Origin: Gracilibacter sp. BRH_c7a
Lineage (GTDB): Bacteria; Bacillota; Desulfitobacteriia; Desulfitobacteriales; Syntrophobotulaceae
Assembly (NCBI GenBank): GCA_001516055.1
Contig: LOEZ01000080.1
Location: 81,091 to 145,090, forward strand
DNA: 64,000 nt
Reading direction: 5' to 3'
The notes beneath the pieces are model-generated. The model had not been told where the DNA came from. It saw only the letters and a list, made by a program, of their open reading frames with translations, and ran no database searches. Shown here piece after piece: positions 20,702 to 45,537 of the stretch. The position numbers and the translations under genes were made by a program. The number at the start of each line of letters is the position of its first letter. Positions within the stretch are counted from its first letter, which is position 1.

Positions 20702-21052
20702 ATGGAAAAAAGATTTTTTTATGTTAAAGATTATACGCAAAATGTTCCTGAAAAAGCTACCAAGAACGTCCTTCACCAAAACGATCAAACCAATTCAGTG
20801 ATTTGGGTTATTCCTCCAGGTGAAGTGCTTCCAGCTCACTATCATCCTGAAACGGATGATATCTGGATAATCCTCCAAGGCAAAGGTGAATACTTCCTCG
20901 GGAGAGGTGAGACATTCCCGATAGAACCTGGAATGGTCATTCCAGCTGTTAAAGGCGAGATTCACGGTGCCAAAGCTGTAGGGAATGAGCCACTCGTCTT
21001 TGCAGCAGTATCTGCCCCCATGCCCGCTGTCATGATTAAAGAAGGAGAATAA
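20702..21052 (+). CDS. Cupin-domain protein
   Basis: 116 aa with cupin metal motifs (PAHYHPETDD ... GEIHGAKA). Strong AAGGAGG RBS. Confidence 0.75.
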   Translation: MEKRFFYVKDYTQNVPEKATKNVLHQNDQTNSVIWVIPPGEVLPAHYHPETDDIWIILQGKGEYFLGRGETFPIEPGMVIPAVKGEIHGAKAVGNEPLVFAAVSAPMPAVMIKEGE

Positions 21053-21074
21053 TTTACACATTATTATAATAAGA

Positions 21075-21226
21075 AATCGACCGCAGTAAGCACGGTAAGC
21101 TCGCAATGACGCGAAGCGCGGCACTTTCGCCGCTCCTTGCCATCCATGGCACCGCGGCATTAGGTCATCCGTGACCGTTGCGACAGGATGTTGCTAGTGC
21201 CGGAAAGGCTACTGCGGTCGATTTTA
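21075..21226. repeat. GC-rich structured element closed by a 15-bp long-range stem (copy 1 of 2)
   Basis: AAATCGACCGCAGTA (21075-21089) pairs with TACTGCGGTCGATTT (21210-21224), enclosing about 120 nt that look GC-rich against the AT-rich flanks. Internal hairpins are GCGGC/GCCGC, GCCA-TCCA-TGGC and GGTCA-TCCG-TGACC. The core 21129-21176 recurs at 44356-44403. Confidence 0.6.
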
Positions 21227-21247: not shown

Positions 21248-22519
21248 TTACTCTAAGTCCACTGATAAATGCTTAACTGTATCTTGACAGTATTTAATCC
21301 TCTCCATATCTTCCTTAGTAAGGAGGGGAAACTTCTCATTGTTCGCTAATGCTTCATCTACAGGGATAACCTCATATACCAATCTGTTATTAATCCTTTT
21401 TTTATTGACCCAAGTAGGGATGGCTTCGGCATCAAGGATTCGAGGGCAATCGTCACAATAAACCCTGATAGTTACTTTAGCTATAATACCCTGCTCCGTA
21501 TAAATATCGTCAACAGTCTCTTTACGTTGATCTGAGATGAAGTTTCCCTGGGAATAGAAAACAGGGACTGCTCCTCCGCCTCCATAAGAAGAAGGCAAGT
21601 AGACTGCAGGCTGAAGAACATGAGGATGCCCGCCAAAAATCATATCTACCCCTAGTTCAACAAGCTTTTCGGCCAATTCTTGCTGGAAGGGGTTAGGTGA
21701 GCGGTGATATTCATTTCCCCAATGCAGACAGACAACAATGACTTGAGCACCAGCACTCCTGGCTTCCTTTATTTTATTACCCATCATTTCCACAGTACTA
21801 TCAAGATCTTCAGGATCGAACCCATCCATCAGATTAGCCATATCCTTAGGCAGGATTAAACCATTGATACTCAGACTTCCGTCCGCTAAAGAGCCACTAT
21901 ACCCAAAATTAAGGAAAGCAACTTTCACCCCTTTAATATCCTTAAGGACATAAGTTTTTTCCTCTTCTTTAGCCTTCACACCGATAATATCCAACCCTTT
22001 TTCTCTTGAGACCTCGATGGTGCGGTAAAAGCCGCTGATTCCTTTATCCATCCTATGGTTATTGGCAGCAGTTACGATATCCACACCAGCATCCTTGAGA
22101 GCATCCATGATAGAATCAGGCGTATTAAACTCGGGATAACCAGAGTATCCTCGATCTTGACCTGCCAAAGTTGTCTCAAGATTGGCGATTGTTATATCCG
22201 CATCTTCCAAATAGGGTTTTACATATTTAAACTGACTGCTGAAATCGTAGGAATTAGTTTGAGGATTAGAAGCTGCCATATAAACAGTGTTATGTATTAA
22301 GATATCCCCTACTGAAGCAATTGTAATATCTACATAATTTGGTTTAGTAGGCAAGGGTGGAGTAGTGGTATCGTTATTCGAGGGGGGAGAATCCTCTGTC
22401 ACCTTATCTGTAATGAGAATATTTCTCGCATGCTGAATTAAGTCATCTATCTGAAATGATAAACCACCCAAGTTTAAGGCAATACTGATTAGAATTATTA
22501 GGAGTAGTCTCTTTTTCAT
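21248..22519 (-). CDS. CapA-family (PGA_cap metallophosphatase-like) exported protein
   Basis: N-terminal signal/anchor, then SVGDILIH, NLET, AANNH and WGNEY motifs typical of CapA / poly-gamma-glutamate capsule family proteins. Confidence 0.75.
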   Translation of the reverse strand: MKKRLLLIILISIALNLGGLSFQIDDLIQHARNILITDKVTEDSPPSNNDTTTPPLPTKPNYVDITIASVGDILIHNTVYMAASNPQTNSYDFSSQFKYVKPYLEDADITIANLETTLAGQDRGYSGYPEFNTPDSIMDALKDAGVDIVTAANNHRMDKGISGFYRTIEVSREKGLDIIGVKAKEEEKTYVLKDIKGVKVAFLNFGYSGSLADGSLSINGLILPKDMANLMDGFDPEDLDSTVEMMGNKIKEARSAGAQVIVVCLHWGNEYHRSPNPFQQELAEKLVELGVDMIFGGHPHVLQPAVYLPSSYGGGGAVPVFYSQGNFISDQRKETVDDIYTEQGIIAKVTIRVYCDDCPRILDAEAIPTWVNKKRINNRLVYEVIPVDEALANNEKFPLLTKEDMERIKYCQDTVKHLSVDLE

Positions 22520-44271: not shown

Positions 44272-44355
44272 TAAACTAGAAATTACTACCCATAATATAT
44301 GTTCTTTTCAGTGCTATTGAAATAAACTGATAGAGAGTGTACCCTGATTATAAGA

Positions 44356-44403
44356 GCCGCTTCATGCCATCCCTGGCACCGCGGCATTAGGCCATCCGTG
44401 GCC
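44356..44403. repeat. GC-rich structured element, copy 2 (48-nt core only)
   Basis: About 90% identical to 21129-21176: GCCGC...GCCA-TCCC-TGGC...GCGGC-ATTA-GGCCA-TCCG-TGGCC. It sits 20 nt upstream of the aminotransferase start. Confidence 0.6.
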
Positions 44404-44424
44404 GTCAGAAAGGAAGGGAAGAGA

Positions 44425-45537
44425 ATGGCTATTCCACTTTTAGATTTAAAAGCACAGTATTTATCAATTAAAGAAGAGATAGATAATGCAGTAATGGGAG
44501 TTCTTGATTCCTGCAAATTCATACTTGGACCCGAAGTAAAAGCATTGGAAGATGAAATCTCAGCCTACTGCGGAACCAAGCATGCTATAGCTGTTGCCAA
44601 CGGTACGGATGCCCTGGTTCTTGCCCTCCAGGCATGCAAAATCGGTCCTGGAGATGAAGTAATCACCAGTCCTTTTACTTTCTTCGCTTCAGCGGAGACT
44701 ATTGCCAATGTAGGAGCTACCCCTGTTTTTGTAGATATTGATCCGGTAACCCTCAATCTAGATATCGATAAGATAGAAAAAAAGATTACACCAAGGACCA
44801 AAGCTATAATCCCTGTTCATATATTTGGCCAAATGGTAGACATGGATAGATTGATGAAGCTTGCTGAAAGGTACAGGCTTAGGATTATTGAGGATTCCGC
44901 TCAAGCTATTGGAGCAGAATATAACGGAAGAAAGGCTGGTTCCATCGGAGATGCGGGGACATTCAGCTTCTTTCCAACAAAGAATCTTGGTGGTTATGGT
45001 GATGGTGGGATGGTCATTACCAGTGATGATGCCATCGCCGAAAAAATTCGGATGCTTAGGTTTCATGGTTGTAAAAATAAATACTATCATGATGAGGTCG
45101 GTTACAACAGCCGCCTAGATGAGATTCAGGCTTCTATCCTCAGAGTTAAGTTCCGTTACCTTGATCAATGGAACCAAAGCCGCAGGGAAAAAGCGGAATA
45201 CTATGACAGGCTTCTAGATCCATTAATCCATCAGGGTAAACTTACTGTTCCCGGAAAAGACCCGAATGCTCTCCCTGTCTATCATCTCTATGTTCTGCGA
45301 TCCGATGAGCGTGAAAAAATAGCTATTGACCTGAATGAGAAAGATATAGCTTGTGGCATATATTACCCACTACCACTTCATCTACAGAACGCTTTTGCTT
45401 ACCTAGGTTATAAACTTGGTGACTTACCAATAGCGGAAGAAGCCTGTACCCAAGCCTTAGCCATTCCCTGCTACCCTGAACTTACCACGGAACAGCAGGA
45501 GGAGATTGTCCAGATTATATTTGCAGCTTTAGACTAG
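44425..45537 (+). CDS. DegT/DnrJ/EryC1/StrS-family PLP aminotransferase (WbpE-like)
   Basis: ATG 44425 behind AAGGAAGGGAAG. IPLLDLKAQY N-terminus and FSFFPTKNLG (PLP lysine). Confidence 0.88.
   Translation: MAIPLLDLKAQYLSIKEEIDNAVMGVLDSCKFILGPEVKALEDEISAYCGTKHAIAVANGTDALVLALQACKIGPGDEVITSPFTFFASAETIANVGATPVFVDIDPVTLNLDIDKIEKKITPRTKAIIPVHIFGQMVDMDRLMKLAERYRLRIIEDSAQAIGAEYNGRKAGSIGDAGTFSFFPTKNLGGYGDGGMVITSDDAIAEKIRMLRFHGCKNKYYHDEVGYNSRLDEIQASILRVKFRYLDQWNQSRREKAEYYDRLLDPLIHQGKLTVPGKDPNALPVYHLYVLRSDEREKIAIDLNEKDIACGIYYPLPLHLQNAFAYLGYKLGDLPIAEEACTQALAIPCYPELTTEQQEEIVQIIFAALD

What the first reader, a model, noticed from the sequence alone, without database searches (positions are those of the whole stretch)
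21075..21226. GC-rich, heavily structured 150-nt element inside a bidirectional terminator-like stem
Between the convergent cupin and capA genes, a 15-bp stem (AAATCGACCGCAGTA / TACTGCGGTCGATTT) is flanked by A-rich sequence on one side and T-rich sequence on the other. It encloses about 120 nt that look far more GC-rich than their surroundings.

Nested helices inside it:
- TCGCAA/TTGCGA (21101-21106 with 21178-21183)
- GCGGC-ACTTTC-GCCGC
- GCCA-TCCA-TGGC
- GGTCA-TCCG-TGACC

It matches none of the common structured RNAs I can recall (tRNA, tmRNA, SRP, RNase P, 6S, cobalamin, c-di-GMP or T-box leaders). Its 48-nt core recurs at 44356-44403.

Inference: either a small structured RNA, or a mobile GC-rich module inserted into a terminator loop.
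Basis: partly seen in the sequence, partly recalled or inferred. Interest (0 to 1): 0.62.

Follow-up and report, generated by a model that had tools for sequence, protein, structure and literature searches.

The report
Repeat module inside a terminator hairpin
The 151-nt GC-rich element is the terminator hairpin shared by two convergent genes, and its loop holds a 52-nt double-hairpin repeat that occurs many times in this genome and in several other anaerobic Clostridia; it is an undescribed family of a familiar kind (REP/BIME/BOX-like intergenic repeats), not a new class of RNA gene.

Summary
A perfect 15-bp stem (21074-21088 / 21210-21224) encloses the GC-richest 121 nt of the window (0.61 against 0.40). 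Nothing in Rfam 15 matches.

The repeated unit is a 52-nt core (21129-21180; second copy 44356-44407), not the whole 151 nt. Read depth over the core is 10-27 times that of its flanks in four metagenomes of the source habitat. The arms of the element are single copy.

The core is more than 90% identical in about 14 other loci from at least 7 Clostridia MAG species. It occurs bare, in tandem, or at the apex of long hairpins whose stems differ between lineages.

At the orthologous cupin/capA spacer:
- one relative has the outer stem with a 13-nt loop;
- one has it with a small insert but no core;
- one has the full mosaic.

The outer stem shows 6 compensatory pairs out of 17. The site upstream of DegT is also polymorphic: full core, second hairpin only, or empty.

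Best reading: a bidirectional terminator hairpin whose loop carries a mosaic of REP/BIME/BOX-like hairpin modules.

The parts
21074..21088 (+). 5' arm of the outer stem (AAATCGACCGCAGTA), preceded by an A-rich run.
   Evidence: In the four orthologous spacers the stem is 97% paired, and 6 of 17 pairs show compensatory double changes.
21210..21224 (+). 3' arm of the outer stem (TACTGCGGTCGATTT), followed by TTTTATTGCTTT. With the 5' arm it forms the likely bidirectional intrinsic terminator of cupin (+) and capA (-).
   Evidence: L037 has the same stem and flanks with a 13-nt loop.
21089..21118 (+). 5' inner arm (AGCACGGTAAGCTCGCAATGACGCGAAGCG). It is homologous to the insert also present in L036 and L038. 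In those two it is a hairpin whose loop is the complement of the AUCC loop (CACGGATGTG, CATGGATTG). In the window it is degenerate.
   Evidence: Alignment A7; sequences.
21119..21199 (+). 81-nt unit present in the window and L038 but absent from L036 and L037. It is closed by the inner stem CGGCACT (21119-21125) / AGTGCCG (21196-21202) and contains the core and hairpin H3.
   Evidence: Alignment A7; constrained fold.
21129..21180 (+). 52-nt core, copy A. P1 is 21129-21133 / 21154-21158. H1 is 21139-21142 / 21147-21150, loop UCCA. H2 is 21163-21167 / 21172-21176, loop UCCG.
   Evidence: Model R1 scores it at 81.1 bits. Depth is 563 against 20.7 on the flanks in X1. Three pairs show compensatory changes, and H2 is 100% paired in 15 distinct copies.
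21180..21194 (+). Hairpin H3 (GCGAC-AGGAU-GUUGC). Its loop is complementary to the AUCC loops of H1 and H2. Together with CTAGTG (21195-21200) it forms a second module shared with L013, L038 and, inverted, L011.
   Evidence: The stem is GGAAC/GUUCC in L013, which is compensatory.
44356..44407 (+). 52-nt core, copy B. It is bare, lies 30 nt upstream of the DegT-family aminotransferase start, and is followed directly by the Shine-Dalgarno sequence GAAAGGAAGGG.
   Evidence: 79.1 bits. At the orthologous site L001 has a copy 49/52 identical. The site is empty in L030, holds only H2 in L031, L032 and L033, and holds no recognisable core in L034.
20702..21052 (+). Cupin_2 gene that ends 21 nt before the element.
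   Evidence: Pfam PF07883, E = 1.4e-12.
21248..22519 (-). CapA (PGA_cap) gene, convergent with cupin, that ends 23 nt after the element.
   Evidence: Pfam PF09587, E = 2.9e-71.

Best explanation
The 151-nt element is a composite with two layers.

**(1) The outer stem is a shared terminator.** The 15-17-bp stem, with A-rich and T-rich flanks, is the hairpin shared by the convergent cupin and capA genes. It most likely acts as a bidirectional intrinsic terminator and 3'-end protector. This step is inferred from the anatomy and from compensatory evolution; no 3' ends were mapped.

**(2) The loop holds a mosaic of small GC-rich hairpin modules.** All modules carry the same loop motif, C-AUCC-N-U-G, or its complement when inverted. 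The centre is a 52-nt core: P1 enclosing hairpin H1, then AUUA, then hairpin H2, then GUCA.

**What is shown about the core.**
- It is a dispersed repeat, with roughly 10-25 copies in the source organism and two in this window.
- It is more than 90% identical in several families of anaerobic Clostridia.
- It occurs bare, in tandem, or at the apex of long hairpins.
- It is present or absent at orthologous sites among relatives.

**What is inferred.** It spread as DNA, as REP/BIME, BOX or ERIC elements do, through an unidentified mechanism that acts in trans. It is kept mainly in the sense orientation inside transcription units, because there it behaves as a stable RNA structure, for example as an mRNA end protector, a terminator loop or a 5' leader.
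For: **No known family.** Rfam 15 gives nothing at gathering score over the window and 11 loci, and nothing below E = 4 locally.

**The core is the repeated unit.**
- Model R1 finds exactly two copies in the window.
- Summed contig depth over the core against its flanks is 563 vs 20.7 (X1), 815 vs 21-24 (X2), 410 vs 8 (X5) and 122 vs 8.3 (X3).
- Several long contigs at the organism's own depth (about 20) carry the core, and assemblies break at it. The arms of the element stay single copy.

**Spread.** The exact 18-mer TGGCACCGCGGCATTAGG hits 11 real loci in 7 Clostridia MAG species, plus metagenome contigs. There are none in viral contigs, phages or plasmids.

**Variety of forms**:
- tandem units (L018);
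- a divergent copy (L025:10480);
- a copy truncated in the H2 loop (L019);
- an extra hairpin module inserted in L011;
- three different long-hairpin settings.

**Orthologous cupin/capA spacers.** L037 has the stem with a 13-nt loop, L036 has the stem with a small insert but no core, and L038 has the full mosaic. In the outer stem 6 of 17 pairs show compensatory changes and 97% of cells are paired.

**Orthologous DegT site.** The full core is present in the window and L001 (49/52 identical, although the proteins are only 72-80% identical). L031, L032 and L033 have H2 only, L030 is empty, and L034 has no recognisable core.

**Structure.** H2 is 100% paired, with CG, UA and AU at one pair and GC and UA at another. 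It is replaced by longer hairpins in L005 and in one porewater copy. P1's closing pair is G-C or A-U. In the long 'type E' hairpins, 7 of 38 pairs are compensatory.

**Context.** Among co-directional gene pairs, 9 copies are sense and 1 is antisense. Three lie between convergent genes and none between divergent genes. No transposase lies next to any copy.

**RNA.** One 215-nt metatranscriptome contig is 50/50 identical to the core.
Against: - No transcript ends or termination were measured for this locus. A 121-nt 'loop' is atypical for an intrinsic terminator, and the simple scan did not call it because its loop limit is 8 nt.
- The direction of the presence/absence differences is not resolved. 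At the DegT site parsimony favours ancestral presence followed by deletions, and L037's second hairpin looks like a deletion remnant. Active mobility is therefore inferred, not seen.
- The copy number comes from summed contig depth in metagenomes, where other organisms also contribute.
- 94% identity at an orthologous site between organisms whose proteins have diverged by 20-28% is unusual for a selfish repeat. It points to selection on the sequence itself, that is a specific function, or to concerted evolution.
- The core is rare worldwide: about 7 of 185,579 species genomes hold the exact 18-mer.
Confidence: 0.72

Rival explanations
1. The core is a functional RNA motif under purifying selection. 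It would be a binding site for a conserved protein or RNA, or a kissing-loop domain in which the AUCC loops pair with the GGAU loop of H3. Its many copies would then be a regulon of cis-acting elements within mRNAs, not a selfish repeat.
For: - The core is 94% identical at an orthologous site while the flanking intergenic DNA is barely alignable and the proteins are 72-80% identical.
- It is more than 90% identical across several families.
- Orientation is 9 sense to 1 antisense.
- G-U wobbles occur almost only on the sense strand (6 cells, against 3 A-C cells from one lineage). H2 covaries and can be replaced by longer hairpins.
- Lineages that lost the 5' half kept H2 directly upstream of the Shine-Dalgarno sequence.
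- Several copies sit 0-15 nt before a Shine-Dalgarno sequence.
Against: - The neighbouring genes share no theme: DegT, galU, rpsP, rbgA, ligA, hisB, purC, cbiB, rubrerythrin.
- One copy is antisense. Copies also occur in tandem, truncated, and between convergent genes.
- The closest relative (L030) does without the core at the DegT site.
- Sense bias can equally arise from replication-coupled single-strand DNA insertion, because most genes in Bacillota are co-oriented with replication (established knowledge).
- The 18-mer used for the scan inflates the apparent conservation of the centre of the core.
Confidence: 0.17
2. The core and its relatives are non-autonomous elements moved on single-stranded DNA by a Y1 (HUH) transposase of the IS200/IS605 or RAYT type, which would recognise the two similar hairpins H1 and H2 as left-end and right-end signals. 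This rival concerns the mechanism of spread and is compatible with the best explanation.
For: - The core has two similar subterminal hairpins, no terminal inverted repeats of its own, and no clear target duplication.
- Head-to-tail tandem units occur.
- Near-exact absence occurs at an orthologous site.
- The sense-strand bias is as expected for lagging-strand-template insertion.
- The genome encodes a REP-associated tyrosine transposase 10 kb left of the window.
Against: - That transposase gene is flanked by a different repeat (GTAAAG...CTTTAC with an AACCGTCCC loop), not by the core.
- There is no core within 20 kb around it.
- The left flanks of the core copies share no target tetranucleotide.
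- The core has no GTAG tag, and it does not fit the published CGTC families, which have 8-9-bp stems starting with A-T.
- No Y1 gene lies next to any of the roughly 14 loci.
Confidence: 0.2
3. The 151-nt element is a stand-alone small RNA gene: a trans-acting sRNA with its own promoter and the outer stem as its terminator.
For: - The fold is very stable (z = -5.2).
- The pyrimidine-rich exposed motifs (CUCCUU, AUCC) resemble the C-rich seed regions of Bacillota sRNAs (my knowledge).
- One RNA contig carries the core.
Against: - The scan finds no promoter-like site in front of the element. The cupin stop codon is only 21 nt upstream.
- The orthologous site in L037 holds just a simple hairpin.
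- Other copies lie inside operons or leaders.
- The arms of the element are unique to this locus.
Confidence: 0.05

Closest known systems
REP / BIME elements of Enterobacteria and Pseudomonas (with RAYT transposases)
   Same: - Small GC-rich extragenic hairpins, dispersed, and transcribed as part of mRNAs.
- Located between co-directional and convergent genes, never between divergent promoters.
- Units combine in alternating orientation into larger mosaics that fold into long hairpins.
- Known to protect mRNA 3' ends and to contribute to termination.
   Different: - There is no GTAG or CGTC tag.
- The conserved part is the loop (AUCC) plus a 52-nt two-hairpin unit, not a single 20-40-nt palindrome.
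- The copy number is tens, not hundreds.
- The only RAYT-like gene nearby is flanked by a different repeat.
- The core is nearly identical across several families, whereas REPs are usually specific to a species or genus.
BOX elements of Streptococcus pneumoniae (boxA-boxB-boxC)
   Same: - Modular intergenic repeats in a low-GC Gram-positive organism.
- A central module (like boxB) occurs once, several times or alone, and outer parts pair into a long stem.
- No transposase of their own.
- They are transcribed and can affect neighbouring genes.
   Different: - No sequence relationship was tested.
- Here the outer stem at this locus is the local terminator and is single copy, not a repeated boxA/boxC pair.
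- The host range is different and much wider.
MITEs such as Correia (Neisseria), RUP (pneumococcus) and Bcr1 (Bacillus cereus)
   Same: - The size (about 150 nt), the terminal inverted repeat, the intergenic location and the strong secondary structure of the composite are similar.
- In one MAG the roughly 290-nt 'type E' composites occur in at least 3 near-identical copies.
   Different: - At this locus the 15-bp 'TIR' is orthologous to a plain terminator stem and is not repeated elsewhere.
- No consistent target duplication was found, only a possible GA at one site.
- No parent IS is known.
IS200/IS605-derived palindrome-associated elements (PATEs)
   Same: Hairpins near both ends, no terminal inverted repeats, no evident target duplication, strand bias, and near-seamless absence at an orthologous site.
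   Different: - No conserved target sequence lies next to the left end.
- No TnpA or TnpB partner was identified.
- At 52 nt it is far smaller than described PATEs.

Membership tests
Any Rfam 15 family | Covariance-model score at or above the family's gathering threshold. | tested here: not met
   There were 0 hits in the 64-kb window. The best local hit has E = 4.3 and is a vertebrate lncRNA, i.e. chance. Across 11 related loci the only hit is a 6S RNA elsewhere in L002.
REP/BIME (RAYT-associated) | A conserved unpaired GTAG or CGTC tag at one end of a 20-40-nt palindrome. | tested here: not met
   There is no GTAG. CGTC occurs at the 3' foot of H2 (GGCCGTCA), but the stems are 5 bp long. Published CGTC families have 8-9-bp stems that start with A-T, and a CCA tail.
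REP/BIME (RAYT-associated) | A cognate single-copy RAYT gene flanked by the same repeat. | tested here: not met
   The Y1 transposase at L029:11134-11967 matches NF047646 (REP_Tyr_transpos) at 78.3 bits, just under the 80-bit cutoff. It is flanked by GTAAAG..CTTTAC repeats, not by the core. No core lies in L026 or L029.
REP/BIME (RAYT-associated) | Dispersed, extragenic, between co-directional or convergent genes, in mosaics of alternating orientation. | tested here: met
   There are 10 co-directional contexts, 3 convergent and 0 divergent. In L038 and the window the hairpin modules run inverse, sense, sense, inverse.
MITE | Terminal inverted repeats that belong to the repeated unit, with a target-site duplication. 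| tested here: not met
   The outer arms are single copy in the source metagenomes and are orthologous to a plain hairpin in L037. The core itself has no TIR. A duplication is at most GA at one site and is ambiguous.
IS200/IS605-type PATE | Subterminal hairpins, no TIR, no duplication, and insertion 3' of a fixed tetra- or pentanucleotide. | tested here: inconclusive
   Hairpins are present, and TIR and duplication are absent. However, the left flanks differ (AAGA, GTTT, ATGG, TTTC, ACAC, GTGA ...). The transposase partner was not testable.
Intrinsic (Rho-independent) terminator | A GC-containing stem directly followed by a U tract on the transcribed strand. | tested here: inconclusive
   The 15-bp stem is followed by UUUUAUUGCUUU on the plus strand and UUUCUUAUUAUAAU on the minus strand, and it is kept by 6 compensatory pairs in four orthologues. 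But the loop is 121 nt, the scan's loop limit excludes it, and no 3'-end data exist.
Riboswitch / cis-regulatory leader | A fixed position upstream of functionally related genes, in the sense orientation. | tested here: not met
   The neighbouring genes are unrelated. One copy is antisense, three lie between convergent genes, and there is one tandem pair.

The most novel reading that the evidence does not exclude
The 52-nt core is a new conserved structured RNA domain of anaerobic Clostridia (Peptococcaceae, Desulfitobacteriaceae, Gracilibacteraceae and neighbours). Its invariant AUCC loops and CUCCUU internal loop would be read by a conserved cellular partner, either a protein or the complementary GGAU loops, to set mRNA stability or translation at many loci. 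It would be a repeat family that the host has taken over as a post-transcriptional signal.
Probability: 0.18. Interest if true: 0.7.

Novelty: new member of a known kind. Interest (0 to 1): 0.42.

Why it matters
Small structured intergenic repeats are well studied in Proteobacteria and pneumococci but hardly at all in anaerobic Clostridia.

This family is absent from Rfam 15, and its core sequence appears in none of the papers searched. Three features make it worth noting:
- It is almost sequence-invariant across several families.
- It is strongly biased towards the sense strand of transcription units.
- It nests inside terminator hairpins.

There are also practical consequences:
- It breaks metagenome assemblies. 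Contigs end in the core in X1, X2 and X5, and at L007/L012.
- It misleads gene callers. Database DegT homologues begin 'MAVRKEGKRM...' from a GTG inside the core.

If the conservation reflects a host function, the family would give a handle on mRNA-end control in organisms that are hard to study genetically.

Tried and rejected
**Searches that found nothing**
- Rfam at gathering and at permissive thresholds.
- Viral contigs, phage records and plasmid records.
- The core sequence in full-text papers, and two keyword searches on clostridial repeats and MITEs.
- Earlier notes of this scan, queried by sequence.
- RNA-seq for the source organism. Only one metatranscriptome contig from another habitat touches the core, and the cold-seep runs hold nothing.

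**Tools unavailable.** A whole-genome census, an orientation test against the replication strand and a transposase co-occurrence test could therefore not be run.

**Ideas considered and dropped**
- Riboswitch: the neighbouring genes are unrelated.
- Sigma-54 promoter: TGGCAC is present, but the GG-to-GC spacing is 2 nt short and no TTGC follows (read from the sequence).
- Cis anti-Shine-Dalgarno pairing of CUCCUU with the downstream ribosome-binding site: the loop changes to UUCAU or CUCUUU without matching changes in the site.
- CsrA-type GGA-loop sites: the GGA loops lie on the strand opposite to transcription in 9 of 10 oriented copies.
- Protein coding: four frames are open across the core, but nothing is conserved outside it.
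- Membership of the published CGTC REP families.
- A link to the nearby RAYT-like gene.

Full report
**1. What is at the coordinates**

The sequence shows a perfect 15-bp inverted repeat, AAATCGACCGCAGTA (21074-21088) and TACTGCGGTCGATTT (21210-21224), with 121 nt between the arms. It is the only inverted repeat of 14 nt or more in the window with a long spacer.

The left flank is A-rich and the right flank T-rich. The cupin gene (Pfam Cupin_2) stops at 21052. The convergent capA gene (PGA_cap) stops at 21248.

The interior is 0.612 GC, the GC-richest 121-nt stretch of the whole 64 kb (mean 0.403, sd 0.061). The plus strand folds at -74.6 kcal/mol (z = -5.2) and the minus strand at -69.7 (z = -4.4).

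Rfam 15 has nothing. There are no gathering-level hits in the window, and locally only chance matches with E above 4.

**2. The repeated unit is a 52-nt core, not the 151-nt element**

The stretch 21129-21180 recurs at 44356-44407. A covariance model of the core, R1, was built from 11 copies with the structure P1[H1]-AUUA-H2-GUCA. It scores the two window copies at 81 and 79 bits, against 10.7 bits for the next-best place.

Contigs from four DNA metagenomes of the source habitat (rock porewater and subsurface) were laid on both loci. Flank depth equals the organism's depth, and the core rises far above it:

| Run | Locus laid | Flank depth | Depth over the core |
|---|---|---|---|
| X1 | copy A | 20.7 | 563-572 |
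| X2 | copy A | 21-24 | 815 |
| X5 | copy A | 8 | 410 |
| X3 | copy B | 8.3 | 122 |

Several long contigs of the organism's own depth (59.9, 26.9, 24.4 and 16.3 kb) carry a core with 3-7 differences. The assemblies break inside the core. Nothing outside 21127-21187 is repeated at 80% identity or more. The source genome therefore holds on the order of 10-25 copies. This is an upper estimate, because other organisms also contribute to summed depth.

**3. The family elsewhere**

The invariant 18-mer TGGCACCGCGGCATTAGG was scanned through 185,579 species genomes and 241 million metagenome records.
- Genomes: 13 hits, of which 11 are real, in seven Clostridia MAG species. These are Peptococcaceae, Candidatus Dehalobacter alkaniphilus, Gracilibacter, Gracilibacteraceae, two Clostridiaceae-labelled MAGs and one Eubacteriales MAG.
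- Metagenomes: 12 hits, of which 8 are real.
- Viral contigs, phage records and plasmid records have none. No paper holds the sequence.

R1 adds a divergent copy (L025:10480-10531, 62 bits) and a copy whose second hairpin is replaced by a longer one (L005).

Outside the 18-mer the copies remain nearly identical. The consensus is (G/A)CCGCTCCTTGCC-N-TCC-N-TGGCACCGCGGCATTAGG-N-CATCC-R-TG-N-CCGTCA.

The settings differ:
- **Bare cores in short intergenic spaces:** hexapeptide transferase to DegT in the window and L001; recR to galU, in tandem, in L007/L012/L018; ffh to rpsP in L009; rplS to rbgA, antisense, in L005.
- **Cores at the apex of long hairpins of three kinds.** 'Type E' is 230-290 nt and occurs in L004, L010, L011, L008 and L016. 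'Type D' occurs in L002, L015, L019 and L025c. The third kind is the window's own, shared with L038 and partly with L013.

Type E has 7 compensatory pairs of 38 among three lineages. One MAG holds at least three 90-95% identical type E copies plus one type D copy. L019 is truncated in the H2 loop. L011 carries an extra inserted hairpin module.

No transposase lies beside any copy.

Orientation: among co-directional gene pairs, 9 copies are sense and 1 is antisense. Three lie between convergent genes and none between divergent genes.

**4. Structure**

Counts are on 15 distinct copies.
- H2 is paired in every copy. One pair is C-G, U-A or A-U (8, 5 and 1 copies). Another is G-C or U-A.
- The closing pair of P1 is G-C, or A-U in L038.
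- H1 never varies except at its top pair.

Part of this invariance is imposed by the 18-mer used to find the copies.

G-U wobbles occur on the sense strand in 6 cells from about five lineages. A-C cells, which would be wobbles on the other strand, occur in 3 cells from one lineage.

All hairpins of the mosaic share the loop C-AUCC-N-U-G. This holds for H1, H2, H3 and the 5'-arm hairpin of L036 and L038. H3 and the 5'-arm hairpin carry its complement, meaning the same module inverted. The arrangement resembles a BIME mosaic.

In the window, the fold with the family structure enforced costs only 1.5 kcal/mol more than the MFE. It closes the core and H3 with the stem CGGCACT/AGTGCCG.

**5. The decisive comparison: the orthologous cupin/capA spacer**

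CapA homologues of 76-79% identity were traced to their contigs. Three keep the convergent cupin gene; a fourth locus, L039 (72% identity), has lost it.

| Locus | Outer stem | Loop content |
|---|---|---|
| L037 | AAATCGATCTTAGTAAG / CTTACTGAGATCGATTT, same left flank as the window | 13-nt loop; a second small hairpin follows that looks like a deletion remnant |
| L036 | AAAGTGACAGCTGTAAG / CTTACAGCTGTCACTTT | Only AACGACAAGCGAAGCATGGATTGCGAAGCG-CCGAAAAGT; no core and no H3 |
| L038 | AAATTGACAGTTGTAAG / CTTACAGCTGTCAATTT | Whole mosaic, colinear with the window, including a 66-bit core |

Relative to L036, the window and L038 have 81 extra nucleotides (window 21119-21199). The boundaries of this segment coincide with the base of the CGGCACT/AGTGCCG stem.

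Across the four orthologues the outer stem is 97% paired, and 6 of 17 pairs changed on both sides. The pairing of the outer stem is therefore under selection whatever sits in its loop. A shared terminator hairpin would behave this way.

**6. The second site behaves the same way**

Upstream of DegT, relatives have the following (DegT identity to the window in brackets):
- full core: the window and L001 (80%);
- only AUUA-H2-GUCA directly before the Shine-Dalgarno sequence: L031 and L032/L033 (85%);
- no recognisable core: L034 (84%);
- an exact gap...CCTAATTAA|AGAAAGG...: L030 (87%).

The same gap shows up as a low-depth joined contig in the porewater runs.

The window and L001 cores are 49/52 identical, although the surrounding intergenic DNA is barely alignable and the flanking proteins are 72-80% identical. 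Parsimony here favours an old core with later deletions. Presence/absence alone therefore does not prove recent insertion.

**7. Interpretation**

*Shown:*
- a composite made of a selected outer hairpin and a loop filled with hairpin modules;
- a 52-nt core that is multi-copy, dispersed, modular, polymorphic at orthologous sites and conserved across families;
- no Rfam family, and no adjacent transposase.

*Inferred:*
- The outer stem terminates and protects both convergent transcripts.
- The modules spread as DNA through an unknown mechanism acting in trans.
- They persist mostly in the sense orientation because they are tolerated, or useful, as stable RNA structures.

The nearby REP-associated tyrosine transposase gene is flanked by a different repeat and has no core near it. 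It is not the evident partner.

The strongest rival is that the core sequence itself is functional RNA. That would explain the extreme conservation, the sense bias and the retention of H2 next to ribosome-binding sites. The unrelated gene neighbourhoods argue against a regulon with one physiological theme, as do the tandem, truncated and antisense copies and the core-less closest relative. A general role at mRNA ends is not excluded.

**8. Comparison and novelty**

The element works like REP/BIME and BOX elements. It fails the defining tests for REP (tag and cognate RAYT), for MITEs (repeated TIRs and target duplication) and for every Rfam family. I file it as an undescribed family of a known kind of element.

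Noticed in passing
window 44398-44436, with proteins P0003, P0005 and P0006: The longest ORF of the DegT gene starts at a GTG inside hairpin H2 of the core. Public gene calls for three relatives start there too, with N-termini MAVRKEGKRM or MAVIKEGKRM. These nine extra residues are almost certainly repeat DNA plus the ribosome-binding site, not protein.
   Followed up: partly
window 44317-44345, and L001 (alignment A6): A block TTGAAAT-N-GATA-N-GTGTAC about 10-35 nt upstream of the bare core is conserved in the window, L001, L030 and L034. It looks like a promoter in front of DegT. If so, the core would form the very 5' end of that mRNA.
   Followed up: no
L029:11134-11967 (about 10 kb left of the window): A 277-aa Y1 transposase matches NCBIfam REP_Tyr_transpos at 78.3 bits, just under the 80-bit cutoff. 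It is flanked on both sides by the other repeat family of this genome (GTAAAG..AACCGTCCC..CTTTAC).
   Followed up: partly
L037:2787-2947 (cupin/capA spacer of a relative): Two similar hairpins stand in tandem (AAATCGATCTTAGTAAG... and AAATTGACTACTGTAAG...). The terminator-like stem itself has paralogues, and the window's single stem carries the left flank of one and the right flank of the other.
   Followed up: no
L018:2970-3064, and the contig ends of L007 and L012: In one Clostridiaceae-labelled MAG, two head-to-tail core units lie between recR and galU, the first lacking its 5' strand. The MAG's contigs end inside the repeat.
   Followed up: partly
L011:440-505: A 62-nt insertion relative to its sister copies L004 and L010 is bounded by CTAG...CTAG. 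It contains an extended GCCATCCATGGC hairpin and an inverted copy of the H3 module, so small modules insert into larger elements.
   Followed up: no
L002:32-212: A 6S RNA gene (Rfam RF00013, 62.9 bits) lies 2.2 kb upstream of the Dehalobacter copy. It is unrelated to the element.
   Followed up: no
L039:2754-2767: In one relative the cupin gene is missing, and capA abuts a convergent ApbA-family gene with only 12 nt between them.
   Followed up: no
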